Shown here: positions 7,616 to 55,711 of the stretch, piece by piece
How positions within the stretch are numbered: the first letter of the stretch is position 1
Layout of the letters: each line of letters starts with the position of its first letter
NCBI GenBank assembly: GCA_963714855.1
Contig: CAVQPT010000006.1
Coordinates: 188,734-252,733 of the forward strand
Source: an uncultured Bacteroidota bacterium
Lineage (GTDB): Bacteria > Bacteroidota > Ignavibacteria > UBA10030 > UBA6906
Length of the DNA: 64,000 nt
Direction: 5' to 3'
The notes under the pieces: generated by a model
Seen by the model: the letters and a program-made list of their open reading frames with translations, nothing else
Database searches by the model: none
Told to the model about the DNA's origin: nothing
Made by a program: the position numbers and the translations under genes

Positions 7616-9289
7616 ATGCCATCTATTGGTCTCAGTACGCTCGACTGGCTGATCATCGCCGTCTATTTCGCCTTCGTTCTGGGACTCGGGTTCTACCTGA
7701 AGCGGTTTACCAAGACGCAGGAGGACTTCTTCATGGCCGGGCGCAAGAACAGCTCCTGGGTGGCCGGGATCGCTTTCCTCTCCGCCAACCTCGGCGCCCT
7801 GGAGTTGCTCGGCATGACCGGCAACACGCTACAAGTACGGGATGTACGTCGCCCACTTCTACTGGGTCGGCGCGGTGCCGGCCATGCTGTTCCTCGGCAT
7901 CTACATGATGCCGTTCTACTTACTCCAGCCGCATCAAGTCGGTGCCGGGGTACCTGAAGCTGCGCTTCGACGAGAAGACGCGGGTGCTCAACGGGATCTC
8001 GTTCGCGGTGATGACGTTGCTCGTTTCCGGCATCAACCTGTACGCGATGGCGCTCGTGCTGCACACGTTCCTCGGCTGGCATTGGGACGTCAGCATGTGG
8101 GTGTCGGCCGGCCACCGTGGCCGTCTACGTCTCGCTCTGCGGCCTGACTCTCGGCGATCTTCACCGAGATCGTCCAGTTCTTCCTCATCTGGTTCGGGCT
8201 GTTCCTGGTGTCGGTTCTCGGCATCGTCGAGATCGGCAGCCTGCAGCGAGGTGTTCGCCCGGGTCCCGGACGGGTTCGCGACGCTCTGGTCGACGTCCGC
8301 CGACCCCACCGCAGAACGGCATGATGATCACCTGGGGCGGTATCGTCCTGGGCCTCGGCTTCGTGCTCTCGTTCGGCTACTGGACCACCGACTTCCTCGT
8401 GGTGCAGCGCGCCTTCTCGGCCAAGGACCTGCGCGCCGCGCGCATGACCCCGATCATCGCCTCGTTCTTCAAGATGGCGGTGCCGTTCCTGGTCATCATC
8501 GCGGGACTGATCGCGCTGATGCTCGCGCAGCGACCCGGCAGCGGCTTCGCGCTGCTGTCAGGACGGCGGCCAGATCAACTACGACTCCGCCCTGCCGCTG
8601 CTGATCGCCCGCTACTATCCCGAGCGGGCTGGTCGGCCTCGGGGTCACCGCGCTGCTCGCCGGCTTCATGGCCGGCCAGGCGGGCAACGTCAGCGCCTTC
8701 AACACCGTCTGGACCTACGACATCTATCACGCCGTCATCAACCGGAAGGCGTCGGACGCCCACCTGCTGTGGATGGGGCGGGTCGCCACCATCGTCGGGC
8801 ATCTATCCTCTCCGTGATCACCGCGTACTGGGCGAAGAGCTTCCCGCGATCATGGACTACATGCAGGCCATCTTCTCGTGGGTCAACGCGCCGCTGTTCG
8901 CCACCATGCTGCTCGGCATGTTCGTGCGTCTGGATCACGCCCGCCGGTGCGTTCTGGGGACTTGATTCCTCGGGATGGGTTCGTCGTTCACGATGTTCCT
9001 CGCGGTGAAGTTCGACTGGATGGCCGGCACCGTGTTCACGCTGTCAGTCGTGGCCAGCGACATGGCCGTCAATTTCTGGCGGGCGTGGTGGGCGTGGCTG
9101 ATCTGCTTCGTGGTGACCATCGTGATCAGTCTGTTTACCGAAAAGAGACCCCGTGAAGAACTGGTCGGTCTGGTAAAGGGGCTCACCCCCGAGGCGGACG
9201 AATCCGGCGTGCCGATGCTGAAGCGCCCGGTATTCTACGCGGTTCTATCCCTGATCGTGCTTGTGATCCTGAACGTCATGTACTGGTAG
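7616..9289 (+). pseudogene. Sodium:solute symporter (SSS family) gene disrupted by at least 10 single-base frameshifts
   Basis: Consecutive ORF fragments in all three forward frames (7616-7957, 7842-8147, 7942-8604, 8117-8965, 8769-9008, 8975-9289) together spell one SSS transporter. Recognisable pieces are DWLIIAVYFAFVLGLGFYLKR…EDFFMAGR, YKYGMYVAHFYWVGAVPAMLFLGIYMMPFY, PGYLKLRFDEKTRVLNGISFAVMTLL, FTEIVQFFLIWFGLFLV, EVFARVPDGFATLWSTSADP, NGMMITWGGIVLGLGFVLSFGYWTTDFLVVQRAFSAKDLRAARM, and a C-terminal MGSSFTMFLAVKFDW…. The frame switches at about 7835, 7925, 8110, 8160, 8255, 8310, 8560, 8615, 8800 and 8950. Confidence 0.7.
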
Positions 9290-9295: not shown

Positions 9296-9502
9296 ATGTC
9301 CATGAGACCCATCTGGTTTTTTGTCGGTATCCTTCTTGTCGTCTTTGGCGTGTTGATTCTTGGGGCCGGCCTGCTGGCGGCGGTCAGCGGAGACATGCCC
9401 ACGACGATTCTCGCGAGCACGCATCCCCGGATCTGGTGGGGGGCGATCATGCTGACCGCGGGAATTCTGTTCCTTGTGTTCAACCGGAAATCCGTGGCCT
9501 GA
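9296..9502 (+). CDS. Small two-TM membrane protein (68 aa), hypothetical
   Basis: aggag RBS and two clear hydrophobic helices. It sits directly after the symporter pseudogene. Confidence 0.45.
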   Translation: MSMRPIWFFVGILLVVFGVLILGAGLLAAVSGDMPTTILASTHPRIWWGAIMLTAGILFLVFNRKSVA

Positions 9503-9575: not shown

Positions 9576-9728
9576 GCCCTGTCGCAACACCATCTTCTGA
9601 TGATTATGAAGGCGGTTCGGACATGCGGCCTAAATTTCTAAGGCATCTTGACAATTAGACGTTCTTTTGTTAGGTTGTGCCCACATTAATTCTCATAAAC
9701 GGTGATCTGACTTCTGAGGAGAGTGGCC

Positions 9729-11111: not shown

Positions 11112-11540
11112 TCAGGGGGTGCGGATTTCGTACGGGGCATAGTCGTACACAACACAGCGTGAAGGCTTCCGTGCATCATACACGACGGTGACATGGTTGC
11201 CTTCGTTCGCGTGTTCGTAGTCGTCTCTCCCGACCGGCATCGTTCCATCGACAGGCACCCCCGGTGTGTGAACGAGACTGCCCATCGGGACAAAGCGAAA
11301 ACGGATCGTCCACGTTGTCTTTTTTCCGCTCTGCATTTCCCTGGCAACGACGTGCCCCTCGGCCACCGCCCCGTACCTGAGTAATGAGCGCAGTCGCGCC
11401 GGACGTACGTACGCAATCCAGACGAAAACAGCCATGATCGCGTTCCAGAAGAGTGTGAACAACGCCAGGAACGGAAGCTCCAGTTCGGTCTCGTCGAGAT
11501 CGTCGAGTCGCGACCCCCATTCAGGGAACAGCGGATGCAC
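11112..11540 (-). CDS. DUF3592-like membrane protein. Possibly the C-terminal part of a frameshifted tandem-DUF3592 gene extending to about 11797
   Basis: GTG-start ORF with a TM helix LPFLALFTLFWNAIMAVFVWIAYV followed by a beta-rich DUF3592-like domain. The open frame upstream continues as LLLDYTFHYDFTTYAGESTVSQGIYEIANEGDAVRVRVHPLFPEW, which has no start codon. A second frame carries MRLFMIPHLLIGIGILAYTLFLATLVFFGEAVEGTVTGTSSTSDDSGT, starting at 11797. Confidence 0.5.
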   Translation of the reverse strand: MHPLFPEWGSRLDDLDETELELPFLALFTLFWNAIMAVFVWIAYVRPARLRSLLRYGAVAEGHVVAREMQSGKKTTWTIRFRFVPMGSLVHTPGVPVDGTMPVGRDDYEHANEGNHVTVVYDARKPSRCVVYDYAPYEIRTP

Positions 11541-12047
11541 CCGAACACGGACCGCGTCGCCCTCGTTCGCGATCTCATATATACCCTGTGATACGGTTGA
11601 CTCTCCCGCGTACGTCGTGAAGTCGTAGTGGAACGTGTAGTCGAGGAGTAGCTAGTCCCGCTGTCATCCGAGGTGCTGGAGGTGCCGGTGACGGTTCCCT
11701 CAACCGCTTCACCGAAAAACACGAGGGTGGCAAGAAACAGTGTGTATGCGAGTATGCCGATCCCGATGAGGAGATGGGGGATCATGAAGAGACGCATACA
11801 GCCCAATCCGGTTCCTTTCCCCTTTTTTGGTGCCAGCGGTCGTGGGACGCGGACATGCCTCGGATCCGGTGTCATGGGGTTTTCTCCGTGTGCACGCCCA
11901 ATATAGGTGGCGGCGGAGCCGCATTCAAGCCCCTCCCGCACCCTCGAACCTCCGTCCAGGACATCCCGATGCAACTTCTCCTGCGTATTGAGCGTATAGA
12001 GAGAACCGTCTGCACTTCATTGGTCCCATCAATTCAGGGTTCCGTCT

Positions 12048-17141: not shown

Positions 17142-18635
17142 ATGGAGGCGAAGACGATGAAGAACCTTCCGGTTATAACGATGGGCCTTCTGGCCGTCAG
17201 CAGAGACTGTTTTCCCGCTGAGCTCTCGCGCACCCGGCGCAGCGCGGTGGCGGCACGGTGCAAGGAACAGGGAACGCCTCTGGTGGAGCTCGAGACCATC
17301 GTGGAAAGCGACAGCGATGTTCTCCGAGCGCTAAAGGAGATCGCTGACAAGAAGGTGAACGCCCTGACACTGTACCTTGGAAACTTCGGTCCGGAAGGTC
17401 CGACAACGCTTCTGGCGCAGAAGTTCGACGGGCCGGTCATGCTTGTTGCGGCAGCGGAGGACTCGGGAAAGGATCTGTACGGCGGAAGGGGTGATGCGTA
17501 CTGCGGCCTTCTGAGTGCTTCGTACAACTCCGGCCTCCGACGCCTGAAGGTCCATCTTCCCTCCTATCCTGTTGGAACTCCCCCGGAGATCGCTGAAAAG
17601 ATCCGGGACTTCATGCCTGTCGCCCGCGTGGCCGTTGGGCTCCGGCTCCTGAAGGTCTTCTCCTTCGGCCCCCGTCCTCACGATTTCCTGACCTGTCACG
17701 CACCGATACAGCCGTTGTTTGACCTGGGCGTCGAAGTTATGGAGAACAGCGAGTTGGACATGTACGATGCTTTCCAGATGACCAAGGGTGATCCCCGGAT
17801 CAAGGGCGTCGCGGCGGACATGGCGAAAGAGCTCGGCAAGGGGAATACCTATCCCGACCTTCTCGAACCGCTCGCACAGTTTGAACTCTCGCTCCTGGAT
17901 TTCATGGAAAAGCATCTCGGAGCGTCGCAGTTCGCCATTTTCGCGAACAAATGCTGGCCGGCCTTTGAGAAGTATTTCGGCTTTACACCCTGCTACATCA
18001 ACGGGAGACTTGCGGCCCATGGCATCCCGATATCCTGTGAATCGGACATCTACGGAGCCCTCAGCGAATACGTCGTTGCCTGCGCGACAATGCTCCCTCC
18101 CGCGATCCTCGACATCAACAACACCGTGCCGTACGACATGATCGAGGAGGCGCGCGACCAGATCGGTGAGTACCACGCGCATGATCTCTGGATGGGATTC
18201 CATTGCGGAAATACCTCCTCCTCCTGCATGGTCAAAGCCAAACTGAACTACCAGTTGATCATGCATCGGATGATGGAGCCCGACAAGGAACCGAACATCA
18301 CGCGCGGCACGTTGGAAGGGCAGATCAAGCCGGGGGAAATCACCATCTTCCGCCTCCAGTCAACTCCGGATACCCATCTCTGCGCATATGTTGCAGAAGG
18401 CGAGGTGCTGAACATCGACCCGAAATCGTTCGGATCTATCGGTGTATTCGCTGTCCCCGAGATGGCGCGGTTCTACCGGCATGTCTTGCTGGAGAAACAT
18501 TTTCCCCATCATACTGCGGTCGCCTTCAATCATGCCGGGCGGCAGCTCTACGAAGCGATGAAGCTCATCGGGATCGGCGACGTATCGTTCAATCAGCCCA
18601 GGGGAATGTTCTATCCGACGGAGCACCCGTTTTGA
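17142..18635 (+). CDS. Probable L-arabinose isomerase of the L-fucose-isomerase-like family (non-canonical AraA)
   Basis: 497 aa. It does not resemble E. coli AraA but has the FucI-like C-terminal catalytic region (…CESDIYGALSEYVV…HDLWMGFHCGNTS…). Its position after araB-araD supports the isomerase role. Confidence 0.55.
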   Translation: MEAKTMKNLPVITMGLLAVSRDCFPAELSRTRRSAVAARCKEQGTPLVELETIVESDSDVLRALKEIADKKVNALTLYLGNFGPEGPTTLLAQKFDGPVMLVAAAEDSGKDLYGGRGDAYCGLLSASYNSGLRRLKVHLPSYPVGTPPEIAEKIRDFMPVARVAVGLRLLKVFSFGPRPHDFLTCHAPIQPLFDLGVEVMENSELDMYDAFQMTKGDPRIKGVAADMAKELGKGNTYPDLLEPLAQFELSLLDFMEKHLGASQFAIFANKCWPAFEKYFGFTPCYINGRLAAHGIPISCESDIYGALSEYVVACATMLPPAILDINNTVPYDMIEEARDQIGEYHAHDLWMGFHCGNTSSSCMVKAKLNYQLIMHRMMEPDKEPNITRGTLEGQIKPGEITIFRLQSTPDTHLCAYVAEGEVLNIDPKSFGSIGVFAVPEMARFYRHVLLEKHFPHHTAVAFNHAGRQLYEAMKLIGIGDVSFNQPRGMFYPTEHPF

Positions 18636-19684
18636 GGGCTGTCCGCCTTCACGGTCCCAGGGATCTGCGCGTGGAGGATGTCCCTTCTCCTCCTCCTCCG
18701 GGCCCGGGCGATGTTCAGATCCGCGTATCGGCTGTGGGGATTTGCGGGAGCGACCTTCATGCCTACCGCAGTGGAGGAATTGCAGATGCGGTCGCGCGCT
18801 CTCCTCTGGTGCTTGGCCACGAGTTCGCCGGACGGGTGGCCGCAGCAGGTCAGGGTGCGCTGGATGGGAATGGCGCGGTGCTGCACAGGAACACCCTGGT
18901 TGCCGTCGATCCCGCTCAACCGTGTGGACAGTGTGAGCGATGCAGGATGGGGGATCCGAACCTCTGTCTCCAACTCCGTTTTTGCGGACTCGCCCCCGAC
19001 GACGGGGCTTTGTGCGAGCTGATCAACATCCCCGGCTCGACCTGTTTTCCCCTGCCGGATGCGATCGACGCCGCCGCGGGCGCGATGCTCGAGCCGCTGG
19101 GCGTGGCGCTCCACGCCATCCGACTGGCAAAGGTGAAAGCAGGCAACACAGTGTCGGTTCATGGCGCCGGGCCGATCGGACTGTTGATTGTCCGGCTTGC
19201 CCGTCTCGTGCATGCCGAGCCTGTCTTTGTGACCGAGCGGCTTCCCTGGAGACTGCAAAAAGCGGCGGACGAGGGGGCCGTTCCCGTCAGCGGCGACCGC
19301 CAATCACGAGTCGTGACGATTCTCGAAGCCACTGCCGGCCGCGGTGTTGACGTGGCCGTCGAAGCGGGATGGGCGGATGTGCTGGTTCAGGAAGCGATTG
19401 ACGTTGTGCGCCCCGGGGGGCGCGTGGTGCTCGTGGGAATCCCGCATGAGGACACACTCTCCATCAACCACTCGGTGGCCCGCCGTAAAGGGCTCACCCT
19501 GCTCTTCTCACGTCGCATGGCATTCACCTATCCGCACGCGATCCGCCTCGTGGAAAACGGGACTGTAAACGTCCGGGGACTCATCAGTCACCGCTTCACC
19601 CTCGACCATACCCCCGAAGCGTTTGCTCTGAACGATCGGTATGAACACGACGTGCTGAAAGTCATGATCACCCCGGAGACCTAA
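18632..19684 (+). CDS. Zn-dependent medium-chain dehydrogenase (sorbitol/xylitol/L-arabinitol dehydrogenase-like MDR)
   Basis: Most likely a TTG start at 18632, overlapping the upstream stop as TTGA, giving [45 protein letters not shown]…GHEFAG (the structural-zinc Cys cluster [15 protein letters not shown]). Rossmann motif VHGAGPIGL. The 493-aa ORF in the track is over-extended 5'. Confidence 0.8.
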   Translation: [350 protein letters not shown]

Positions 19685-23800: not shown

Positions 23801-26044
23801 TTATATTCCCCACCGCAATCCGGCATAGGCCATCCTGCCGCTCAGTGGACCCCAGATGAGTGACGCGTCGAAATACGGGCTGGTGGGATGTTCCGGGTCC
23901 ACGATGGGATTGTCCTGGATGAAATCGAACAGATTTTCCACGCCGATATAGAGCTCCAGCCCCGGGAGGAGTGTGCGAGTGACCTGGGTGTTCAGGGTGG
24001 CGAACGCCGGCGAGCGGTCGCGGCCGCGCAGGCCCGGCGGATTCGATGCGGTGGACGGAAGCCGTTTCGGTCCAAACCACTGCACGGTAATGTCCACCGA
24101 TGTCACCGGATCTCCGGGTCGTGTCTGCTCCGTTGCGTACGCGAGGTTGATGAGGGCGCGGTGCTGGGAGTTCAGAGGGCGCTGGCGCAATGCCCCGTTG
24201 AGCTGTTGCCGCACGTCAAGGTAGCGGTAGGCGACACGAGTTTCCAGCCGGGGGAGCGGCTGCATGTTCAATTCAACCTGGAGGCTGTTTGCGAACCCGC
24301 CTGGTCCGACCGTACCAAACCGCACCTCCCGCGGGGAAGCATCGAGATCCGCTACGACCTGGCTGGAGAAGACCGTGCGGTAGAAATCGACACTGACCGT
24401 TGCTTCACGATAGCCGACCAGAAAGTAGTGTGTTACGTTGGCACCGTAGTTCCAGGCAACTTCCTGGCCGAGGCCGAACCCGAAGGAGCCGCCAGGCGCC
24501 ACGGTCACCGTCCGCGAACTGGCGAATACGGATGCATGTTCTGTGAGGATATTCGCTGTGCGGAATCCTCTTCCTGCCACCGCGCGCACGACCCAATCTT
24601 CGTCGGGAGCATACCGCACGTGCAGACGGGGGGTGACGAATGTTCCATACGCAGTATGATAATCTGCCCTGATGCCGGCGACGATCGAAAATTCGTCTAA
24701 TGGCCGGTAGGTATATTCGAAGAACACGCCCGGGACGCGCTCCGTGCGGTTGAATGCCAGGAGGTCGAACGACTCGTCATACCGGTCCACCAGAATGCTT
24801 GCCCCCGTTCTGAAACCGTGGACTGTGGATCCGAGGATTGACTGATAGAGGAAATTCAGATAGCCCGTTTCCTGAATACCCGCGTATGATCGCGGTCCGA
24901 ACGAGGACGTATTCCGGTACCGGCCGAGGGACCACTGGATCCCAAAGCTCTGATACGGCTTCCCCTCGAAGACGTGGCCGGTCTTGCCGCTGAGTCTCAG
25001 ATACTGCGATGTGGTCCCGAAACGAAAGACAGATTCGGACGGCACGGAACTGTTCTGCCGTGTCCCTCCCTCCTTCGTGTCGTGGACATACTGCAGCAGG
25101 AATTGCCCTTCCCATCCGTCGGGATTGGAATAGCTCCAACGCTGCAGAGCGTTCACGGTGGTGAAGACCGGAAAGTCCAGAAACCGGTCACTGTTTCTGT
25201 CTGCCTCGACCCTCTGGGAACTCGCATGCATCAATGTCATGGACGACCAGTGGGAGCCAAGGGGTTGTCGGAATGCGAGGTTCCCTTCAATCCGCGCATC
25301 CATGTTCCCGTACACATTGACGGCGACCCGTTGTTCTTCCGCATCGTCGGGTTTCCGGAGGTCGACGTCGATCTGTCCGGTAATGGATTCAAAGCCGTTG
25401 GCGACGGATCCGATCCCCTTGGAGACATTGATCGCCTTGATCCACGTACCGGGAATAAACGTAAGACCGACGTTTGAGGTCAACCCCCGGATGTACGGAA
25501 GGTTCTCCAGGGTGGTCTGGGTGTAGATGCCGGAAAGTCCGAGCATCTCAATCTGCCTCGTCCCCGTGATTGCGTCGGCGAAGGAAACATCGATCGCCGG
25601 GTTGGTTTCAAAGCTTTCCGCGAGATTGCAGCATGCTGCTTTCGTGAGTTCTTTCTGCGTCATGCGCTGGACGGAGCGGGCATCCATGTAGTCAATGACC
25701 GTCGCAGCGCGCTCGCCGACAATCTGTAGACCTTCCACTTCCCGCGTGACTGCCAGCAGGGTAACCGCGATCGATGAGACTGGTCCAACGACCAGCGTGT
25801 CTGCGGCGTAGGCGGCATGGCGGACGATCAGGACGCGCGTCGTGTCGACGAAGGCCAGAGTAAAGTGGCCATCGGAGTCGGAGATCGTTCCGCGTGTGGT
25901 CCCTTTCCAATACACACTGACACCGGCTAGCGTCGCGACCGTTCCGTCCGATTCCCGGCCGGACACTGTTCCGTGGAGGATCTCCTGGGCGGAACCAGCA
26001 ACCGCCCAGAGAACGGTGAACAGGATTACAAGATAGCGCTTCAA
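23801..26044 (-). CDS. TonB-dependent outer-membrane receptor with N-terminal CarbD-like domain
   Basis: Signal peptide, CarbD-like GTVSGRESDGTVATLAGVSVYWKGTTRGTISDSDGHFTL, a plug domain, and a beta-barrel ending …AGLRWGI. 747 aa. Confidence 0.9.
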   Translation of the reverse strand: MKRYLVILFTVLWAVAGSAQEILHGTVSGRESDGTVATLAGVSVYWKGTTRGTISDSDGHFTLAFVDTTRVLIVRHAAYAADTLVVGPVSSIAVTLLAVTREVEGLQIVGERAATVIDYMDARSVQRMTQKELTKAACCNLAESFETNPAIDVSFADAITGTRQIEMLGLSGIYTQTTLENLPYIRGLTSNVGLTFIPGTWIKAINVSKGIGSVANGFESITGQIDVDLRKPDDAEEQRVAVNVYGNMDARIEGNLAFRQPLGSHWSSMTLMHASSQRVEADRNSDRFLDFPVFTTVNALQRWSYSNPDGWEGQFLLQYVHDTKEGGTRQNSSVPSESVFRFGTTSQYLRLSGKTGHVFEGKPYQSFGIQWSLGRYRNTSSFGPRSYAGIQETGYLNFLYQSILGSTVHGFRTGASILVDRYDESFDLLAFNRTERVPGVFFEYTYRPLDEFSIVAGIRADYHTAYGTFVTPRLHVRYAPDEDWVVRAVAGRGFRTANILTEHASVFASSRTVTVAPGGSFGFGLGQEVAWNYGANVTHYFLVGYREATVSVDFYRTVFSSQVVADLDASPREVRFGTVGPGGFANSLQVELNMQPLPRLETRVAYRYLDVRQQLNGALRQRPLNSQHRALINLAYATEQTRPGDPVTSVDITVQWFGPKRLPSTASNPPGLRGRDRSPAFATLNTQVTRTLLPGLELYIGVENLFDFIQDNPIVDPEHPTSPYFDASLIWGPLSGRMAYAGLRWGI

Positions 26045-26062
26045 TTGGAGAGGCCTCCCTGC

Positions 26063-26410
26063 TCAGTGTGTTTTGGCGTTGTCGCGGTAGAGACAACAGG
26101 CGGGGAGGACGGCGTACACGGAGTCCGGAGCGTGGTAGGGGCCCGTGTCGTGACCGACTGCAGCGATCCGCTTCTGAAGAGAGTCCACCGTCATTGCAGG
26201 CGACTCAAACGCAACCGACAGGATCTTGGTTTTCTTGTTCCACCGGGCGAACTTCACTTCGTCGAGAGCGACGGCCTTCTCGATGCGTGTCTTGCACATT
26301 GAACAATTACCAGCGACGGCGAATGTCTCTTCGCGGACCGATGATTCCTGGGCGATGAGTGAACCGGCGCTGAGTGCGAGCGCCACGAGACTGCACAAGA
26401 GGATCTTCAT
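26063..26410 (-). CDS. Secreted heavy-metal-associated (HMA) domain protein (copper-chaperone-like)
   Basis: Signal peptide, then FAVAGNCSMCKTRIEKAVALDEVK. This matches the HMA fold motif G(M/N)xCxxCxxxIEKAL. It lies 18 nt upstream of, and in the same direction as, the TonB receptor. Confidence 0.65.
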   Translation of the reverse strand: MKILLCSLVALALSAGSLIAQESSVREETFAVAGNCSMCKTRIEKAVALDEVKFARWNKKTKILSVAFESPAMTVDSLQKRIAAVGHDTGPYHAPDSVYAVLPACCLYRDNAKTH

Positions 26411-26502
26411 TGTTGTCCTTTTTGAATACTGTGACCTGAACGGAGATTACTCCCACGTCAACGGCGTAGTGCCGCTGCCCGGGCCGCATGGGTGGTCACG
26501 TC

Positions 26503-26886
26503 TCAAATACGGAGTGTACAGTACAGCAGGGTCAGAGGGGGTGTGCCGGGTGGAGGTGATGGCGTGGCGTGGACTTCAGCCAGTGGTGCGTTGAGCAGGT
26601 CGCCGACAGTGATCGGAAGAGGAAGAAATTCCTGGACAGGCAGTGGTCCTGCAGACCACGATCCTGTAGCTGTGTGATCATCGCTGACGACCAGCGAAAC
26701 AACTGCATTGAAACAGCAGCGGGACATCTGTTCGTCTTCGGCACAGCACGATTGTGGCTCGCTCAACGGTGCCGACACAAGACCCGAAGAGACCAGTGTA
26801 CCGTCGCAGAAATGCGAAGCAACGGTTACACCGACCGTCACCGTGAGGTACAGGCTTACCAGGAATATGCGGGACACCGTGCGCAT
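26503..26886 (-). CDS. Small secreted Cys-rich hypothetical protein (doubtful; the 3' half has poor codon bias)
   Basis: MRTVSRIFLVSLYLTVTVGVTVASHFCDGT…SCCAEDEQMSRCCFN…. It has a signal-peptide-like N-terminus and 7 Cys, and lies upstream of the HMA-TonB pair on the same strand. GC3 drops in the second half, so the true gene may be shorter or absent. Confidence 0.3.
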   Translation of the reverse strand: MRTVSRIFLVSLYLTVTVGVTVASHFCDGTLVSSGLVSAPLSEPQSCCAEDEQMSRCCFNAVVSLVVSDDHTATGSWSAGPLPVQEFLPLPITVGDLLNAPLAEVHATPSPPPGTPPLTLLYCTLRI

Positions 26887-27029
26887 GTACACAATGTAGG
26901 AAGATCTCGGCTTGCGCGCAAGTCCGCCCCGGAAATCGGATTCAGGCCTCTTTTGAGCCTTGTCCTCGTTGCTTCTCGCGGGGCATTTTGATAGAATGGA
27001 GTATCATCCCGAATGCCTGAGGACCAAGA

Positions 27030-27584
27030 ATGAAACAATTTCTCTCGTTGCTTCTTCTCGCACTTTTCGTCTCCGGTTTTTCCACGGCTACACCCGAACA
27101 ACCGGTACCTGGAATGGACGGGACATGGAAGCTTGTTCCGGACAAAAGTACCAATCTTGCGACGTGGCGGTCCCGTGTCCTGCAGCTGTCCATAACGACG
27201 GAACCCAACCACGTTCTGGTGCTCCATCAATGGTTGGAACGCGATCAGGTGGTCTCTGTCGACACGTTTCGCTTCAGTCCTGGCGGGAAACCGGTCACGT
27301 CGCTGGTTTCGTCAGAGCTCTGGCCGGAGAATTGGTTCATGGGTGTACTCGCCGTGAAGGGGGGCACCCGAACGGTCACGGGGGTCTGGGAGAAACCCGA
27401 ATCCCTGCTTGTGGTACACACCACGATGCCGGTGCGGACGTCGCAGGGGTTGACGGATGTCCAAACCTCCCGGCAATATCACCTGGCTCCGGACGGCACA
27501 ACCCTGACGCTGACCGAACGGCGTGCAGGCAGGCCTACGCCGATCGTGCTCACATTTGAGCGCATGACCACCACAACCCAGTGA
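27030..27584 (+). CDS. Secreted hypothetical protein (184 aa)
   Basis: Signal peptide MKQFLSLLLLALFVSGFSTA, a beta-rich body, and consistent codon bias. Confidence 0.5.
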   Translation: MKQFLSLLLLALFVSGFSTATPEQPVPGMDGTWKLVPDKSTNLATWRSRVLQLSITTEPNHVLVLHQWLERDQVVSVDTFRFSPGGKPVTSLVSSELWPENWFMGVLAVKGGTRTVTGVWEKPESLLVVHTTMPVRTSQGLTDVQTSRQYHLAPDGTTLTLTERRAGRPTPIVLTFERMTTTTQ

Positions 27585-40516: not shown

Positions 40517-43500
40517 CTATCCGTTTTCTCCGGTCAGCCGTGCGATCTGCAGCAGAAAGAATCGCAGGCGGTTCTGATCGTCTGTTGAAAGAGCCTGGTC
40601 TTCAATCCGTGCGATGCGTTCAACCTCTTTCATCGCCCGGATCACGTTCGCCGGCACCTCAACAAGCCCTTCGGATGCGATGGCAAGATACTCGATTGCC
40701 GCGCCGAGGAAGCGGTGCATTTCGTCATCCGTTCCGGACATGCGGAAAAAGCTCTCGAGACCCGAGGGGAGGCGGGGTCTCCGCCCCTGCGAGGCCAGCT
40801 CCGGGCTCATGTCCTTTCCGGATATTGCATAGAGCGCCACTGCGAGTTCGACGAAGGCATCGACGCGCTCGAAGACCGGTTGTTCCAGCAGCGACCACGC
40901 ATGTTCCCTCCATTGACGCACCTCCAGGGGAAGGCGCATCAACCGGCTGATTTCCTTTTTCCAGGAGGGATCTATCGGTCCGTGCGCCAGGTCCGTGAGT
41001 TTCGCGGGATCCGTGTTGAACAAATCCTGCTGCAGGAGCACGGCGAGGTCGGGACGCAGTGCGGGGAGGAGGTCGGGAATGAACCGAGAGCCTTCGAAGA
41101 AATCGCCAACGTCCACGCCATGCCGGCGCACGAGTTCCTGCTGGAGGAGGGGAATGAAGCGGCCCATCGCGTCGACATCTTCACGCAATGCAAGCAGGGC
41201 CGCGTTCCCGGCCGGGAATGCGCGTTCGACCGATCGCAAACAGGTTCGCTCGACGTCAAGATACAGTCGCAGATTCTGCAGGATTTCATACACGGGAAGG
41301 TGCGGGAGAATTCTGTCAGCGACAAATGTCTCGGGGTCACCTTCAACGGATTCATGCCGGGTGAAGCTGTCCAGCGCGCGGAAAAGTCCCGTGGAAAGCT
41401 GGGGGATACCGAGGACGGTGGTCTGGGCCTGGTTGTGTGCGATGGCGCGGAGGAGGCTGCCATAGCGCGATAGGGGGATCGTGCTGGCGATACGTTCGAG
41501 GATCCGGTTTCCCCGGTCTTTGCCGGCTGAGACCGGGCGTACGGTCGGACGGTCGCGGAGTGCGGGCGTTGTCCGGGCGATGAAGTATGAGAGAATATGG
41601 ATTCCGACAACGTCTTCGTCCCGTCCGTACAGAATCTGTCTGAAGTTCTGCGTGAGGAGGCCGAGAAAATCGTGCAGGACCGGATCGGCCGTGCCGAGCG
41701 TGAGGCGTTCGAGGGCCTGTTTTCCTCGGGTGGTGGTTATCAGACGGCTTTCGGCGAGTTCTTCCCCCGCCCGCACGATTTCTCTGCTGTGCACGTCCTG
41801 CGAGACCTTCAGATGATGGAAAAGCTGCGCCAGATCGCGGACCGGAAGGTGCCGCATCTTTTCGGCGAGTGCGCTCTGGATTGTCCGGAGATCGCCGCCG
41901 GCAAACACGCCCATCATGGGAGTGGTGGCATAGAGAGCGCTGCGGCGTGCGGATGCGTGGAGGCGGCGGCTGAGATGTGAGGTGGCACCGTCCCCGCGGG
42001 CCAGGAATGCCGGTAGCCCGCTGAAGGTACCGTAGTATCCCCCCTGTCGTTGCATCGGTTCACCGCACCCCATTTTGAGGCGCACCCGGCCCGTCAGCCC
42101 GTGACCGGCAGTCCACTGCAGGATATCATGTTTCGCCTGCCGGTACAGCTGCATGCCTGCCGCCTGGCTCACCTGCTGGCTCAGATCAGACCCCGCAATG
42201 AACACTTCTGTTGTCAACTCTGCGAACCGTTCATGGGTTTCCTGATTCAGCCGTCGGCTCTGGAGTGAATATTCCCACAGCTTGTTGACATACGTGAGCA
42301 CGGAGCCGACTGCCTGGCGGTCTTCGAAGAGGGGCGTAAGCCAGACAGAGGGAATTTCCAGGTCTGGAGAGTCGCGCAGGATATGCTCACGCCGGGCACG
42401 CATTCTCCGATCAAGATCGATGAGCGCCTCGGGTTGTGTCGACATGCTGATTTGCAGAGCGAGAACAATGCCCGGGTTGCCGTAACGGGCCGCAATTTCG
42501 TTGATCTCGAGGATATTGAAGACCGTCGTGTCGATGGCGAACGGGTCCTGCGCCGTCACCATGTTCTGATGGATGCGGGGTGAAATCACGACACGCTGTA
42601 GCAGATCCCGGTACAGGACCGCCTGGCGGAGGAGCACAGGATTGGTCGTGCCGCGCGTTACGGCAGGGATCAACCGGAACACTTCCTTCCGGAGCCGCTT
42701 GTTCAGCGCGAAGTAGTACTCAAGCCCCTCCTTTCTCCGGCGTCGCAGCTCGAGCATGCGATGCTCGAGGCGGTCATTGTGATACCAGAGCGATGTCACC
42801 GGGTCACGTGCCAGGTGAAGGGTCATACCGATCTGACGCAGACGGCCTGACTTGGCGTGGAAGGGGAGAATGCCGCGATAGCGTTTTTCAAGCTGATGCG
42901 TCAGTGCGGTGATTTCGTTCAGCAGACGCACGAATCTGCCGGTCGTCCGGGGAAGCCGTTCGATCTCCGCGAGCAGCCTGCCGTCCACTCCTGCTCCGAT
43001 ATCGTGCATGGCCAGAGTCTGGAGGAGTCGGGAAAGACGATTGACATTGCTGAGGAGCACCGAAGCGATAAGCCGGTGTCCCTGTCCCGACGGTCTCGTA
43101 CTGCCGTCCCAGTCCCCCCAGAATGAAAGCATCAGAGGAGAGAGCCCCGCCTGATGGAGACCGGCATACTGCTCGGCGGCGACGAGGGAATCCAGATCGA
43201 GACAGATTTCGTCTGCTTCCTGGGTCGAGGAAATGGCAACGGAGGTGCCGGCAAACTCCGCGACCAGCGCCTGTGCCGCCCGTTCAATCGACAGGAGCGA
43301 AGGGGAAGAATCGGAAAGGAGTTCCTGTTCTATGGTGTCGAACGCCATCTCCGTCTGTAATGAAAACATCTGCGTCGGATGGACCGTGCGGTCGAACATC
43401 CGCTGTTGAAAGGCCTCCTTGCGGCGGGAGAGGCTGTCGCGGAACAGTTCGCGTTCCAGAATGTCTCCCAGCATACTGCCATTGTCGGAGCGGCATCGTT

Positions 43501-46120
43501 CCATGAGATCACGGGCGATTTCCTGCCTGTCGAGATAGCGCTGGCGGAACACGTCCAGGCGTGCTTCGAGGAAATCGTGCGAAAATGCCCGGAGCATCTG
43601 TTCGCGTTGCCCGGGCAGCCGCAGGGGAAACCGCGGCTCCTTGAGGAGGGGTGGGAGGGCGTTGTGCAGGGCTTCTTCCACTGCCGCCCACCGGGTGTCC
43701 TTCCTGCTTCCAGGTCCCTGGTTCCCCCGCACGGAAAAACTTTTCCTGCTGTACCGGGATGCCTCCTCGCCGATGAGCCGGTTCAGGTCAATCAGCACGC
43801 GCCTGGTCTTTGATGAAAGAGCTTCCGCTCCGTCAGTGCCACCCAGGGTTAGTCGGAACGCCTTTCGTCCGGTCTCGAACCCCTCCTCGGTGCGTGCAAA
43901 TGTCGACAGCGGTATCATTCCGATCCCCTGGCGCGCAAGTCCGGCAGCGACCCACTCGAGCGACAAGCCCGACGGGAGTTTGTGGATCTGCAAGATCGGG
44001 TACATGCTTCCCGTGGGGGGGAGGATGTCAAGCGCAAAAGGATTCCGGTCAGCGGGGACACTGCGAAACGCCGTGGCAATCGCATTCATCCGCTCGGCAA
44101 AAATGCTGTTGCGCAACCGCCAGTATGCCCGGACAACATGCGGAGGATTGCGGTACAACAGATAGCCGACAAGGATCGCCCCGGCGTTGGGGATAATGGT
44201 AGCGTTCAGCGCGTTGAACCGCATGCGCAACTCTTCCATCCGGATCTCGATTACTGAAAGACGCGCTCCTGCCAGACAGTCCGTTTTGGACAGGGAATGG
44301 ACCGTGACCACGAGGTCTGCCCGAGAGGATGGAATCCGTCCTGTCCGCACCAGTTCCTGCGCCATCTGGCGGAGTGTGGGGATATCAGGCAGGGTATCGG
44401 CCGGGACAACATTCTGATAGGAAAGATCGTCGACCACCATGATCCCCCGCGTCAACAGACTTTCCAGAAGGGATGTGACCGCGGCGGGATTGAAGATCCG
44501 TCCTGTGGCATTGTGCGGATTGTTGAGCACAACCGCACCACTGTCCTTCCACGCGGGGTTTGTGTCCACGCGCTCGTCAACGCAGCGGAGGATTGCATCG
44601 CTATCGAGCTGGAAATCTGGGGTCAGGGGGACGACGTGCACGCGCGGAAAACAGTGTTCATATGTCCAGCTTAGGTCCGGGAAAATGACCTCATGGATGC
44701 CACAATGAAACCCGAGGAGGCTGAGGGCGGTTCGAGCGGAGCCACTCACAACGGCGCATGCGGCGGGATCGTATTCGGCGTGGTGAGCGGCGAAGGAGCG
44801 GAGAAAACTCTGCGTGAGATCCCGTATGAGATGTTCGTCCCATGGCGATGCCGTCACCTCACGGATCACCTCAAGACTCCGCTGTGAAGCGAAACGGTCT
44901 ACCGGTGCGAGCATGGGGCTGGACTCTATTCGCTCCACACCATGCTCTGCGCGCGCGGCGAACCGTATTGCGGCCGCATCCAATGTCACCTGCCGGGCGG
45001 ACAGGATCGTTCCAAGTCGCCGCTCGGTTTGGAAAGAATACTGCTCCAAAGTAGCGTCGGCCTGTCCATGCCGTCTCGTCGGTTCTCGAGGAGGTTCTAC
45101 CGGCAGCGCTGCCGGAGCAGGCCTGTTCTCGGGGGTGCCCGGCTGAATGAGGAAGTGCACGAGTTCAGTTTCCGACGCCGACGGAGTCCCCTTCAGCTGG
45201 AAGTGCAGGGTTTCGAACAGAGAGAGATACTCTGCATTCCCGGCAAGGAACAGGAGGGAAAGGTGACGGAGGTCAGGGGAGAAAATCCCGGGGCTCAGAA
45301 TCCGTATGACGCGGTTGACGAGCTTCGCCTCCCGCGCGAGCGAGAGATGATTGGGTGCATCGTTCACCTCCAGGAAAAAGAGCGGTCTGGTCAGGCTCAG
45401 ACTGCGGAGGGATCGCCGTGTTTCTTCTGAGGGTACCGCGCCGAGGACGACGAACGTCGGGCGGTCCGGGCCGTCGTCAACAATTGCACGAAGAGCATCG
45501 AGCGCGGCTTGTTCGTTGGCAGGAAGTCCCTGGATGTGCAAACCGCTGAATGCGACGAGATGGGGCGGAATGTCGAGTTGATGGAGGAGGACCCGTGCGG
45601 GAAGTTCTGCCAGGTACACCGAGAGCGCATGGAAGAGGACGCGGAGTGCTTCGCGCACGCCTCCGGAGGCAAGGACGATCTCACGGTGGCCGGAGCTCTT
45701 TCCGAGGTCGTACCTCAGCGGTTCCTGTTGGTGGTGCAGCCAGTGATCGAAGGCGAGGACAAGAGGCGATGGCGACGTGCGCGTAAAGCCGCCGCGGGGG
45801 AGATACGGCGCGCTCTTCCGGATGAGTGCGGTGAGCAGATCCAGAAGCGGGCGGTCTCCGCCGCCGGCATCCAAGGCATCGAGGAGGCGTTGGGGATCGT
45901 CGTCGGTCAGCGATGTGTCCTGGACATCTATCCCCAGCGTGGCTCGCAGAAGAGCGGAGGAAAGCCGTGCATCCTGGACCGGATTTCCGATATGGAAATT
46001 GACGCGGTCCTCCGGCGCCACGGCCGAAGCCGATGTTGCTTCACTGATCTCGGATACCTTTGCGGCACGGGTCGGTTTGAGACGGAAGCGGGTGGCAATG
46101 TCATTGGTTGTCTGAGCCAT
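40517..46120 (-). CDS. Giant multidomain protein (1867 aa): two tandem PLP-aminotransferase-like (fold type I) modules fused to a divergent full-length phosphoenolpyruvate-carboxylase-like module
   Basis: One uninterrupted ORF. Module 1, aa 35-330, is degenerate aminotransferase-like: NFHIGNPVQD, IVLASGGVREALRVLFHAL, no SxSK. Module 2, aa 440-780: AVVSGSARTALSLLG, VVLNNPHNATGRIF (the NPxNPTG motif), MVVDDLSYQNVV, VTVHSLSKTDCLAGARLSVIEI (the SxSK PLP-Lys plus GxR motif). PEPC-like module, aa 880-1867, with PEPC motifs in canonical order: DRTVHPTQ (TAHPTE), LSFWGDWDGSTRP (WMGGDRDGNP), IAARYGNPGIVLALQISMSTQPEALIDL ([26 protein letters not shown]), LTPLFED (APLFET), FIAGSDLSQQ (MIGYSDSAKD), LKMGCGEPMQRQGG (FHGRGGSIGRGG), SLLRAIAHNQAQ (SLRAIPWIFAWTQ). 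C-terminus …ARLTGENG (…AGMRNTG). Confidence 0.8.
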   Translation of the reverse strand: MAQTTNDIATRFRLKPTRAAKVSEISEATSASAVAPEDRVNFHIGNPVQDARLSSALLRATLGIDVQDTSLTDDDPQRLLDALDAGGGDRPLLDLLTALIRKSAPYLPRGGFTRTSPSPLVLAFDHWLHHQQEPLRYDLGKSSGHREIVLASGGVREALRVLFHALSVYLAELPARVLLHQLDIPPHLVAFSGLHIQGLPANEQAALDALRAIVDDGPDRPTFVVLGAVPSEETRRSLRSLSLTRPLFFLEVNDAPNHLSLAREAKLVNRVIRILSPGIFSPDLRHLSLLFLAGNAEYLSLFETLHFQLKGTPSASETELVHFLIQPGTPENRPAPAALPVEPPREPTRRHGQADATLEQYSFQTERRLGTILSARQVTLDAAAIRFAARAEHGVERIESSPMLAPVDRFASQRSLEVIREVTASPWDEHLIRDLTQSFLRSFAAHHAEYDPAACAVVSGSARTALSLLGFHCGIHEVIFPDLSWTYEHCFPRVHVVPLTPDFQLDSDAILRCVDERVDTNPAWKDSGAVVLNNPHNATGRIFNPAAVTSLLESLLTRGIMVVDDLSYQNVVPADTLPDIPTLRQMAQELVRTGRIPSSRADLVVTVHSLSKTDCLAGARLSVIEIRMEELRMRFNALNATIIPNAGAILVGYLLYRNPPHVVRAYWRLRNSIFAERMNAIATAFRSVPADRNPFALDILPPTGSMYPILQIHKLPSGLSLEWVAAGLARQGIGMIPLSTFARTEEGFETGRKAFRLTLGGTDGAEALSSKTRRVLIDLNRLIGEEASRYSRKSFSVRGNQGPGSRKDTRWAAVEEALHNALPPLLKEPRFPLRLPGQREQMLRAFSHDFLEARLDVFRQRYLDRQEIARDLMERCRSDNGSMLGDILERELFRDSLSRRKEAFQQRMFDRTVHPTQMFSLQTEMAFDTIEQELLSDSSPSLLSIERAAQALVAEFAGTSVAISSTQEADEICLDLDSLVAAEQYAGLHQAGLSPLMLSFWGDWDGSTRPSGQGHRLIASVLLSNVNRLSRLLQTLAMHDIGAGVDGRLLAEIERLPRTTGRFVRLLNEITALTHQLEKRYRGILPFHAKSGRLRQIGMTLHLARDPVTSLWYHNDRLEHRMLELRRRRKEGLEYYFALNKRLRKEVFRLIPAVTRGTTNPVLLRQAVLYRDLLQRVVISPRIHQNMVTAQDPFAIDTTVFNILEINEIAARYGNPGIVLALQISMSTQPEALIDLDRRMRARREHILRDSPDLEIPSVWLTPLFEDRQAVGSVLTYVNKLWEYSLQSRRLNQETHERFAELTTEVFIAGSDLSQQVSQAAGMQLYRQAKHDILQWTAGHGLTGRVRLKMGCGEPMQRQGGYYGTFSGLPAFLARGDGATSHLSRRLHASARRSALYATTPMMGVFAGGDLRTIQSALAEKMRHLPVRDLAQLFHHLKVSQDVHSREIVRAGEELAESRLITTTRGKQALERLTLGTADPVLHDFLGLLTQNFRQILYGRDEDVVGIHILSYFIARTTPALRDRPTVRPVSAGKDRGNRILERIASTIPLSRYGSLLRAIAHNQAQTTVLGIPQLSTGLFRALDSFTRHESVEGDPETFVADRILPHLPVYEILQNLRLYLDVERTCLRSVERAFPAGNAALLALREDVDAMGRFIPLLQQELVRRHGVDVGDFFEGSRFIPDLLPALRPDLAVLLQQDLFNTDPAKLTDLAHGPIDPSWKKEISRLMRLPLEVRQWREHAWSLLEQPVFERVDAFVELAVALYAISGKDMSPELASQGRRPRLPSGLESFFRMSGTDDEMHRFLGAAIEYLAIASEGLVEVPANVIRAMKEVERIARIEDQALSTDDQNRLRFFLLQIARLTGENG

Positions 46121-51715: not shown

Positions 51716-51811
51716 TTGCAGGCCGTGTTGCTCAGTGCGCCCCGTCCGGGACCCGGGCCGGCCTGACATCATAACCACATCGTGCACCGTTCCCCAACAA
51801 CCGAGAACGTC

Positions 51812-55159: not shown

Positions 55160-55348
55160 ATGTCTATCAGGGTCTTTCTGTTTATTGGCATTCTCGGAGG
55201 GTTTACCACGTTTTCGTCGTTCAGTTATGAGACGATAGCACTCTTCCGTGACAACGAGGCATTCTCCGCCGTCACCAACATTGTCATGACAATGGCGGGG
55301 TGTCTCGGTGCCACGCTGGCGGGAAGTGCGCTGGGGAAACTGATCTGA
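55160..55348 (+). CDS. crcB: CrcB/FluC fluoride channel, C-terminal half only (62 aa; likely a truncated remnant)
   Basis: MSIRVFLFIGILGGFTTFSSFSYETIALF… aligns to residues about 62-120 of 4-TM CrcB proteins (the …GFCGGLTTFSTFSAE… half). The in-frame upstream sequence hits TGA immediately. No alternative frame between 55076 and 55159 encodes a CrcB N-terminal half. Confidence 0.5.
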   Translation: MSIRVFLFIGILGGFTTFSSFSYETIALFRDNEAFSAVTNIVMTMAGCLGATLAGSALGKLI

Positions 55349-55363: not shown

Positions 55364-55711
55364 ATGAAACTTGAAGGCGAAGGGAAGTTGCTCCGTATTT
55401 TCATCGGAGAAATCGACCGGGTAGGACACCGGCCATTGTACGAGGCCCTCGTTCTCAAAGCGAAGGAAATGGGCTTGGCCGGGGCAACGGTATTGCGGGG
55501 GATCATCGGTTATGGCGCCGACAGCCGGATTCATACTGCCAAGATCCTGAGGTTGTCCGAAGACCTCCCGATCGTTGTCGAGGTTGTGGACACCCAGGAA
55601 AAGATTGACGCCTTTGTCGGTGTTGCGGGGACAATGCTGGAAGAGGCGGGGTGCGGGGGTATGATCACCGAAGAACGCGCGCATGTCATCCGCTACACCA
55701 AAGGGCGCTGA
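55364..55711 (+). CDS. DUF190-domain protein (crcB-associated, PII-like fold)
   Basis: ggagga RBS 15 nt after crcB. KLLRIFIGEIDRVGHRPLYEALVLKAKEMGLAGATVLRGIIGYG…PIVVEVVD is typical of DUF190, a family usually encoded next to crcB. Confidence 0.8.
   Translation: MKLEGEGKLLRIFIGEIDRVGHRPLYEALVLKAKEMGLAGATVLRGIIGYGADSRIHTAKILRLSEDLPIVVEVVDTQEKIDAFVGVAGTMLEEAGCGGMITEERAHVIRYTKGR

What the first reader, a model, noticed from the sequence alone, without database searches (positions are those of the whole stretch)
7616..9289. Sodium:solute symporter gene carrying at least 10 single-base frameshifts while all neighbours are intact
Six overlapping ORF fragments in three frames reconstruct a complete SSS transporter. 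Every break is a +/-1 indel (for example ttctacTtactcc at about 7925), with no in-frame stops and no larger deletions. Pure indel decay, without substitutions destroying motifs, fits either a very recent pseudogene or locally poor consensus such as a low-coverage or error-prone region. The isolated single indel in the DUF3592 gene at about 11650 and the half crcB at 55160 could reflect the same cause.
Basis: seen in the sequence. Interest (0 to 1): 0.5.

Follow-up and report, generated by a model that had tools for sequence, protein, structure and literature searches.

The report
Garbled consensus in a conserved transporter gene
The many frameshifts in this sodium:solute symporter gene are real in the deposited sequence, but they almost certainly come from an assembly consensus that mixed reads from two different organisms, so this is a data-quality problem and not a decaying gene.

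Summary
Window 7616-9289 (+) encodes a complete SSS-family transporter (PF00474) spread over three frames. It is 1674 nt where intact homologues are 1662 nt. There are 12 frame breaks, made by 13-14 single-base insertions and 1-2 single-base deletions, all between 7828 and 8966. The neighbouring genes are intact.

The cause is most likely a chimeric consensus, not decay. The gene ends resemble syntenic Bacteroidota relatives (clade A). The core, about 7660-8970, is a different, high-GC clade B sequence found in MAGs labelled Acidobacteriota. Core GC3 is 0.97, against 0.69 +/- 0.03 for 26 other window genes. All indels lie inside this foreign block. They are almost all insertions, are not in homopolymers, and often place both the A and the B allele of a site side by side.

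With the indels removed, the protein has no excess of unusual residues and no in-frame stop. Its one violation of a conserved column is a hybrid A/B serine codon. The same gene is broken in the same way in two other long metagenome contigs. An independent assembly of one run shows it in only two pieces.

Read pileups were not available. Confidence in the artefact reading is about 0.85. Biological interest is low.

The parts
7616..9289 (+). SSS-family (PF00474) transporter gene as deposited: 1674 nt against 1662 nt in intact homologues, read through three frames
7616..7660 (+). Native-type (clade A, Bacteroidota-like) 5' end. GC3 is 0.71 over columns 1-84 (window 7616-7699). Boundary is approximate.
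   Evidence: N-terminus MPSIGLS... matches the syntenic relatives P0002/P0005/P0019
7661..8970 (+). Foreign-type (clade B) core with short clade A patches. GC3 is 0.97 over columns 85-1380. It is 86-89% identical to L081, L004 and L002, and contains every indel. Boundaries are approximate.
8971..9289 (+). Native-type (clade A) 3' end, closest to L082 (0.81) and L083 (0.79). Clade B scores only 0.67-0.70.
7828..7829 (+). +1 insertion, ACG|C. Clade A has ACG and clade B has ACC; both alleles are written in tandem.
7919..7921 (+). +1 insertion, TAC T TAC TCC AGC. It interleaves B (TTC TCC) and A (TAC AGC AGC) codons.
8108..8109 (+). +1 insertion, GCC G GCC. A has GCC GGG and B has GCC GCC.
8138..8140 (+). 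Hybrid codon TGC (Cys) at a column where all 66 homologues have Ser. A has AGC and B has TCC/TCG.
8147..8149 (+). +1 insertion, CTG A CTC TCG. The A comes from B's ACG and is followed by A's CTC TCG.
8246..8247 (+). +1 insertion, CAG C GAG GTG. B's CAG is followed by A's (AA)C GAG GTG.
8309..8311 (+). +1 insertion, ACC G. B has ACC and A has ACG; both alleles are in tandem.
8527..8533 (+). Possible compensated +1/-1 pair, giving QR where homologues have RD or SD
8558..8558 (+). +1 insertion, CTG T CAG. B has CAG. The syntenic relatives P0005 and P0006 have Ser here, so the extra T may come from a native TCN codon (inferred).
8618..8625 (+). +1 insertion at the junction of an exact A-type patch (TAC TAT CCC GAG, identical to L082) and B-type C GGG CTG
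8797..8805 (+). Two +1 insertions, GGG|C and T|ATC. B has GGG and TTC; A has GGC and ATC.
8846..8849 (+). -1 deletion at a Ser codon where A has CCG AGC and B has CCC TCG. The window has CCG CG-.
8926..8929 (+). +1 insertion, GTG CGTC TGG. B has CGC and A has GTC.
8960..8967 (+). Two +1 insertions, GGA CTT G ATT C CTC. Removing them gives G-L-I-L-G-M as in the syntenic relative P0005.

Best explanation
The frameshifts are a consensus artefact of metagenome assembly or polishing. This SSS transporter is unusually conserved: about 80% amino-acid and 75-90% DNA identity across Bacteroidota, Ignavibacteriota, Acidobacteriota, Calditrichota, KSB1 and Aminicenantes.

In the contig of this Bacteroidota-like organism, the conserved core of the gene was written mainly from reads, or a draft, belonging to a different, higher-GC population carrying the clade B allele. 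The gene ends and all flanking DNA come from the native clade A genome.

At codons where the two alleles differ, mismatches were represented as insertion plus deletion. The consensus kept the base of one allele and added the base of the other. That produced single-base insertions and a 12-nt-longer gene broken into at least seven ORFs. The organism's real gene is most likely an intact 1662-nt clade A gene.

Shown here: the mosaic, the compositional break, the confinement of indels to the foreign block, the insertion bias, the tandem alleles, the absence of substitutional decay, and recurrence in other long contigs.

Inferred: that the contig comes from a long-read pipeline of the metaFlye plus Medaka type, that foreign reads were recruited by cross-mapping, and that the native gene is intact.
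For: 1. Mosaic. In sliding windows the gene is closest to the syntenic relatives L001/L072 at 7616-7705 and after about 9100. It is 0.83-0.97 identical to L081/L004/L002 between about 7660 and 8970. Diagnostic sites give an A-B-A block pattern that leave-one-out controls do not show.

2. Composition. GC3 of the core is 0.97, matching clade B (0.91-0.98). The 26 other window genes give 0.690 +/- 0.028, with a maximum of 0.754. The 5' end of the gene gives 0.71.

3. Placement. All 14-16 indel events fall inside the foreign block. I found one other frameshift in the other 62 kb.

4. Direction and context. There are 13-14 insertions against 1-2 deletions. Ten of 14 inserted bases are in runs of length 1, and the longest run is 3.

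5. Tandem alleles. By eye, most events juxtapose the A and B alleles or switch between exact A and B strings. By an automated test, 8 of 14 inserted bases equal the alternative allele of the adjacent column. Random insertions give 23%, and only 1 of 150 simulations reached 8.

6. No decay. With the indels removed there is no stop codon. Only 5 residues are unseen in 66 homologues, against a control median of 3. The single hit on a conserved column is TGC, a position-wise hybrid of AGC (A) and TCC/TCG (B).

7. Intact relatives. Syntenic relatives carry an intact 553-aa gene in the same FKBP, SSS, 66-aa gene context.

8. Independent assembly. A contig from run ERR12037370 has the identical FKBP protein and the same neighbour gene lengths, and shows the SSS gene in two pieces (303 + 269 aa, span 1663 nt) rather than seven.

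9. Recurrence. Two other long metagenome contigs, L164 and L165, carry the same gene broken by insertion-biased single-base indels, mostly outside homopolymer runs (7-8 ins with 0-2 del, and 3-4 ins with 1-2 del).

10. Literature. Nanopore consensus indels are described as concentrated in homopolymers (PMC9262707). Long-read metagenome assemblers are reported to produce cross-taxon chimeras, haplotyping errors and genes broken by indels (bioRxiv 10.1101/2025.04.22.649783). One widely used soil pipeline uses metaFlye, a minimum-coverage filter and one round of Medaka (PMC12313526).
Against: - No reads could be inspected, so the coverage spike, clipped reads and mixed pileup that the model predicts are unverified.
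- The source record and sequencing platform of the window were not identified.
- The DNA of the independent ERR12037370 contig could not be retrieved. It still has one frameshift, so at least one break could be real.
- Clade A calls inside the core (about 21%) are not clearly above the 12-16% noise of leave-one-out controls. Core GC3 is as high as in pure clade B. The core is therefore mostly one foreign sequence, not an even blend, and the tandem-allele reading rests on the indel sites themselves.
- Six of 14 insertions were not explained by the automated criterion with the seven references available.
- L164 and L165 also have split downstream galK genes, so part of their damage may be general low quality.
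Confidence: 0.85

Rival explanations
1. This is a true, very recent pseudogene. The native gene core was replaced by clade B DNA through inter-phylum transfer and homeologous recombination, and the gene was then inactivated by many single-base indels.
For: The foreign core with native ends is what a real recombinant would look like. The family appears in MAGs assigned to many phyla at about 80% identity, which is compatible with horizontal transfer. The independent ERR12037370 contig still shows one frameshift.
Against: Fourteen or more indels are present with no excess of unusual residues and no in-frame stop. From my own knowledge of bacterial pseudogenes, substitutions outnumber indels several-fold, so tens of aberrant residues and several stops would be expected.

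Insertions outnumber deletions 13-14 to 1-2. Bacterial mutation is deletion-biased (Mira, Ochman and Moran 2001; Kuo and Ochman 2009; cited from memory).

Inserted bases match the alternative allele of the adjacent site more often than chance. A hybrid AGC/TCC codon is present. The same damage pattern occurs in unrelated contigs.
Confidence: 0.05
2. These are generic long-read consensus errors from locally low coverage, with no involvement of a second organism. The core is simply the organism's own sequence.
For: An isolated single frameshift exists in the DUF3592 gene about 2.4 kb away. L164 and L165 have other split genes nearby.
Against: Core GC3 of 0.97 is about ten standard deviations above the other window genes and equals clade B. 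The indels are not in homopolymers, whereas residual nanopore consensus indels are described as homopolymer errors (PMC9262707). The indels coincide with the foreign block and carry alternative alleles.
Confidence: 0.06
3. A real mosaic allele exists in one strain, and the consensus mixes two co-existing strains of the same species, one with a native-type core and one with a clade B core. The frameshifts are still artefacts, but the foreign core is genuinely in this genome.
For: The evidence is the same as for the main explanation. The data here cannot tell whether the clade B reads come from another phylum or from a recombinant strain.
Against: Nothing here requires a recombinant strain. High-GC clade B genes sit on long contigs of MAGs labelled Acidobacteriota (L002 on 1.6 Mb, L004 on 295 kb), and two of those MAGs come from the same kind of soil survey. 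Those populations are a simpler source.
Confidence: 0.04

Closest known systems
Chimeric, haplotype-mixing and indel errors in long-read metagenome assemblies (Trigodet et al., bioRxiv 10.1101/2025.04.22.649783)
   Same: A contig stretch comes from a different taxon. It is flagged by a sudden shift in GC and in gene-level taxonomy, and genes are given wrong reading frames by indels.
   Different: Here the chimeric stretch is only about 1.3 kb inside one conserved gene, with native sequence on both sides. The indels have a specific signature, with both alleles in tandem, that I did not see described in the passages I read. That study used PacBio HiFi data; the platform of this window is unknown.
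Residual homopolymer indels in nanopore consensus (Sereika et al. 2022, PMC9262707)
   Same: Single-base indels that fragment gene calls in MAGs built from long reads only.
   Different: The indels here are not in homopolymers (run length 1-3). They are nearly all insertions and are clustered about 300-fold in one gene.
Sodium:solute symporter family, PF00474 (553-aa subfamily found in Bacteroidota, Ignavibacteriota, Acidobacteriota and other phyla; some records name it Na+/galactose cotransporter)
   Same: The reconstructed protein is collinear with the family over its full length and 84-86% identical to intact members. It has the same downstream 66-aa membrane protein gene.
   Different: The deposited DNA does not encode it in one frame. 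Its core and ends belong to different clades of the subfamily.
Mosaic genes produced by homeologous recombination (for example pneumococcal pbp genes; recalled from general knowledge)
   Same: A foreign block sits inside a native gene, with junctions in conserved sequence.
   Different: Real mosaics stay in frame. Here the block carries at least 14 single-base indels that duplicate alternative alleles.

Membership tests
Sodium:solute symporter family (PF00474) | Full-length match to the family profile | tested here: met
   The stitched protein matches profile positions 1-406 of 406, E 3.9e-49.
Sodium:solute symporter family (PF00474) | A single uninterrupted ORF collinear with the 553-aa orthologues | tested here: not met
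   There are 12 frame breaks, and the gene is 1674 nt against 1662 nt.
Genuine bacterial pseudogene (mutational decay) | Excess of unusual or non-conservative substitutions and in-frame stops alongside the indels | tested here: not met
   There are 5 residues unseen in 66 homologues, against a control median of 3, and no in-frame stop.
Genuine bacterial pseudogene (mutational decay) | Indel spectrum with deletions at least as frequent as insertions | tested here: not met
   13-14 insertions against 1-2 deletions. The expected deletion bias is taken from the literature as I recall it.
Genuine bacterial pseudogene (mutational decay) | The same lesions are seen in independent sequence data from the same population | tested here: inconclusive
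   The ERR12037370 contig with the identical FKBP shows the gene in 2 pieces, not 7, but its DNA could not be retrieved.
Chimeric or cross-mapped consensus artefact of metagenome assembly | Abrupt change of composition and of nearest-relative taxonomy within the contig | tested here: met
   GC3 is 0.97 in the core against 0.69 +/- 0.03 elsewhere. The core is nearest to MAGs labelled Acidobacteriota, and the ends and flanks are nearest to Bacteroidota MAGs.
Chimeric or cross-mapped consensus artefact of metagenome assembly | Errors are confined to the chimeric stretch and reflect both haplotypes | tested here: met
   All indels lie within about 7660-8970. Eight of 14 inserted bases equal the alternative allele, against 23% by chance. 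A hybrid Ser codon is present.
Chimeric or cross-mapped consensus artefact of metagenome assembly | Read-level signature: excess coverage, clipped reads at the block ends, mixed pileup | not testable with these tools
   No reads were available, and the source record was not identified.
Chimeric or cross-mapped consensus artefact of metagenome assembly | Recurrence at the same conserved gene in other assemblies | tested here: met
   L164 and L165 carry the same gene broken by insertion-biased single-base indels, mostly outside homopolymer runs.
Homopolymer-length error of nanopore or 454 type | The indel lies in a homopolymer run of at least 4 | tested here: not met
   Run lengths are 1 (10 cases), 2 (3 cases) and 3 (1 case).
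Programmed ribosomal frameshifting or recoding | The frameshift site is conserved in orthologues | tested here: not met
   All 80 genome loci and the syntenic relatives encode the protein in one frame. Twelve shifts in one gene is not credible for recoding. Slippery motifs were not searched.

The most novel reading that the evidence does not exclude
The Bacteroidota genome really carries an SSS gene whose 1.3-kb core was replaced by Acidobacteriota-type DNA through inter-phylum homeologous recombination. Some of the junction indels would then be real by-products of that event, not consensus errors.
Probability: 0.04. Interest if true: 0.45.

Novelty: not a real feature. Interest (0 to 1): 0.1.

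Why it matters
Biologically this matters little. The organism most likely has a normal transporter gene, so it should not be counted as a pseudogene or as evidence of genome decay or loss of a sugar-uptake function.

Practically it is a useful warning. A gene conserved at the DNA level across phyla can be overwritten by sequence from other community members in a metagenome assembly. The result is a locally foreign, frameshifted sequence inside an otherwise good contig. Such stretches inflate pseudogene counts and can mimic horizontal transfer.

They can be flagged without reads by three signs occurring together: clustered single-base insertions outside homopolymers, a GC3 jump, and a switch in nearest relative.

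Tried and rejected
- Sequence of the independent contig. I tried to recover the two SSS pieces (303 and 269 aa) of the ERR12037370 contig, which would have been the most direct check. Searches with the N-terminal half and the C-terminal 104 aa did not return them, and they were not members of the ten clusters I listed.
- Source record. Exact look-ups of a neighbouring protein and of the window's own 104-aa fragment found no gene position on record. The supplementary tables of the soil long-read study are not held. Provenance from that project is therefore only a guess.
- Closer native relatives. A scan of JGI metagenome contigs with the FKBP neighbour reached at best 74% amino-acid identity. 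The native allele could not be reconstructed.
- Fine-scale A/B alternation at diagnostic sites. I rejected this as evidence of an even blend, because leave-one-out controls show 12-20% wrong-clade calls.
- Position of the single frameshift in the independent contig. Modelling it on the corrected window sequence gave no match.
- Rfam and tRNA scans of the window found nothing.
- Suspected further frameshifts at 17142-19684 and 25973-27584 were not supported. The first pair is two intact genes, a fucose-isomerase-like gene and an alcohol dehydrogenase. The second is small ORFs without family hits.
- Programmed frameshifting was rejected because the orthologues read in one frame.

Full report
**What is in the sequence**

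Window 7616-9289 (+) contains at least seven overlapping ORF fragments in the three forward frames. Stitched together, they give a 552-aa protein that matches the sodium:solute symporter profile PF00474 end to end. The protein is 84-86% identical over its whole length to a large set of intact 553-aa proteins from metagenomes and MAGs.

I aligned the DNA to intact 1662-nt homologues. The window gene is 1674 nt, and the alignment locates 12 frame-breaking events between 7828 and 8966:
- nine +1 insertions
- two +2 events, at 8800-8804 and 8960-8966, each of which reads as two separate +1 insertions a few bases apart
- one -1 deletion, at 8848

A profile alignment adds a possible compensated +1/-1 pair at 8527/8533. 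There are no in-frame stops and no larger gaps.

The neighbours are uninterrupted, and the Pfam-matched ones cover their profiles: a TonB-dependent receptor, a Por_Secre_tail protein, FKBP, the small membrane protein at 9296-9502 and Amt. Long ORFs of up to 1867 aa run across the rest of the window. Two suspicious ORF pairs turned out to be separate genes or small unknown ORFs.

**The gene is a mosaic of two clades**

The homologues fall into two groups.
- Clade A is carried by Bacteroidota-type contigs that share the window's gene order: TonB receptor, Por_Secre_tail, FKBP, SSS, 66-aa gene (L001, L072, L082, L083 and the P0005 contig).
- Clade B is a higher-GC form on long contigs of MAGs labelled Acidobacteriota (L002, L004) and on a short metagenome contig (L081).

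The window's flanks are only about 74% identical to the best syntenic relative. In the gene:
- The first about 45-85 nt and the last about 300 nt are closest to clade A.
- The stretch from about 7660 to about 8970 is 83-97% identical to clade B in 90-nt windows.
- Overall the core is 0.86-0.89 identical to clade B members, which is how similar they are to each other (0.88-0.90). It is only 0.77-0.80 identical to clade A.

Diagnostic sites give an A-B-A block pattern. Leave-one-out controls show scattered noise but no such blocks.

Composition settles that the core is not native:
- 26 other genes of the window: GC3 0.690 +/- 0.028, range 0.62-0.75
- 5' end of the SSS gene: 0.71
- SSS core: 0.97
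- clade B: 0.91-0.98

Every indel lies inside this foreign block.

**The indels look like consensus errors, not mutations**

1. Direction. There are 13-14 insertions against 1-2 deletions. As far as I recall the literature (Mira, Ochman and Moran 2001; Kuo and Ochman 2009), bacterial mutation is deletion-biased.

2. Context. Ten of 14 inserted bases are in runs of length 1, and none is in a run longer than 3. Residual nanopore consensus indels are described as homopolymer errors (PMC9262707).

3. Content. At most events the window carries the clade A and the clade B versions of a differing site next to each other, or jumps between exact A and exact B strings with one base too many. Examples:
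   - 7828: ACG|C, where A has ACG and B has ACC.
   - 8246: CAG|C|GAG GTG, which is B's CAG followed by A's ..C GAG GTG.
   - 8309: ACC|G.
   - 8618-8625: TAC TAT CCC GAG, identical to L082, followed by B's C GGG CTG.
   - 8797-8805: GGG|C and T|ATC.
   - 8960-8967: GGA CTT|G ATT|C CTC. Without the two extra bases this encodes G-L-I-L-G-M, as in the syntenic relative P0005.

   An automated version of this test found that 8 of 14 inserted bases equal an alternative allele at the adjacent column in seven reference sequences. Random insertions into the corrected gene gave 23%, and 1 of 150 simulations reached 8.

4. No accompanying decay. With the indels removed, the protein has 5 residues never seen in 66 collinear homologues, against a control median of 3. 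The only violation of a conserved column is Ser174 to Cys, codon TGC. That codon is a position-by-position hybrid of the clade A serine codon AGC and the clade B serine codon TCC/TCG. A gene that had really accumulated 14 indels would be expected to carry many aberrant substitutions and several stops.

**Independent hints**

An assembly of run ERR12037370 contains a 6.9-kb contig with an identical FKBP protein and the same neighbour gene lengths. In it the SSS gene is called in two pieces spanning 1663 nt, which implies one net frameshift instead of twelve. Its DNA could not be retrieved.

Two other long metagenome contigs were also examined: L164 (374 kb) and L165 (100 kb), with contig names of the kind long-read assemblers produce. 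They carry the same gene broken by the same kind of damage:
- L164: 7-8 single-base insertions and 0-2 deletions
- L165: 3-4 insertions and 1-2 deletions

These events again mostly lie outside homopolymer runs and often at third codon positions, where a second allele appears in tandem. This gene therefore seems to be a recurrent trouble spot, although those two contigs also have other split genes nearby.

**Most likely mechanism**

This SSS gene is conserved enough at the DNA level for sequence from other community members to align to its core. I infer that the consensus of the core was determined largely by a foreign clade B population. I also infer that, where alignments of roughly 20%-diverged sequence represent a mismatch as an insertion plus a deletion, the consensus kept one allele's base and added the other's.

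A pipeline of the metaFlye type, with a minimum-coverage filter and a single Medaka round, is used for large soil surveys (PMC12313526). Low-abundance populations would then lack contigs of their own, so their reads could map to this one. Chimeras across phyla, haplotyping errors and genes broken by indels are documented for long-read metagenome assemblers (bioRxiv 10.1101/2025.04.22.649783). I could not establish the platform or project of this window, so this step is inference.

One caveat applies. The core's GC3 is as high as in pure clade B, and clade A calls inside it are not clearly above control noise. The core is therefore mostly one foreign sequence with short native patches, not an even blend.

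**Rivals**

- A real pseudogene following inter-phylum recombination would explain the mosaic. It would not explain the insertion bias, the tandem alleles, the hybrid codon, the lack of substitutional decay, or the recurrence elsewhere.
- Plain low-coverage error would not explain the foreign composition or the non-homopolymer context.
- A recombinant strain co-assembled with a native strain cannot be excluded, but the frameshifts would still be artefacts.
- Programmed frameshifting is excluded because all orthologues read in one frame.

- The DUF3592 gene (minus strand, about 11112-11800) has one frame change at about 11640-11650. When stitched, it matches PF12158 in two stretches. No homologue was available to classify the event.
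- The crcB ORF at 55160-55348 covers only profile positions 50-102 of 103. It starts 85 nt after the stop of an intact tricorn-like S41 protease and is followed by an intact DUF190 gene. It is a 5' truncation, not an indel problem, and there is no sign that it shares a cause with the SSS gene.

**Verdict**

This is not a biological feature. Interest is low, apart from its value as a recognisable signature of cross-organism consensus contamination. The signature is clustered non-homopolymer insertions together with a GC3 jump and a switch in nearest relative.

Noticed in passing
window 11112-11800 (-), frame change at about 11640-11650: A two-domain DUF3592 membrane protein gene is split by one frameshift, either -1 or +2, at ...AGC TAC TCC TCG AC.... 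It is not in a homopolymer. It could be an ordinary consensus error or a real lesion.
   Followed up: partly
window 55160-55348 (+) and 55364-55711 (+): A 62-aa ORF matches only the C-terminal half of CrcB (profile 50-102 of 103). It starts 85 nt after the stop of an intact 1097-aa tricorn-like S41 protease gene (51782-55075) and is followed by an intact DUF190 gene. No N-terminal half is present in any frame, and Rfam found no fluoride riboswitch.
   Followed up: partly
L164 4001-5670 and L165 4001-5664: The same conserved SSS gene is fragmented by insertion-biased single-base indels, mostly outside homopolymer runs, in two other long metagenome contigs (374 kb and 100 kb). The downstream galactokinase gene is also split in both.
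   Followed up: partly
window 8527-8533 (+): A possible compensated +1/-1 pair inside the SSS core gives Gln-Arg where homologues have Arg-Asp or Ser-Asp. Some consensus errors may therefore be hidden in frame.
   Followed up: no
(L001-L080): This 553-aa SSS subfamily is about 80% identical in amino acids across MAGs assigned to Bacteroidota, Ignavibacteriota, Acidobacteriota, Calditrichota, KSB1 and Aminicenantes. It is usually followed by a 66-aa membrane protein gene. That is unusually high conservation for a transporter and suggests either strong constraint or frequent transfer.
   Followed up: no
window 40517-46120 (-): An uninterrupted 1867-aa ORF has only one Pfam hit, an aminotransferase class I/II domain at residues 444-762. 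Most of the protein is unassigned.
   Followed up: no
window 9600-9700: GC drops sharply to 0.39 over 100 nt in the intergenic region upstream of the ammonium transporter gene.
   Followed up: no
window 60361-63999 (+): An ORF of more than 1212 codons runs off the end of the window, so it is not listed by the ORF tool. It was not characterised.
   Followed up: no
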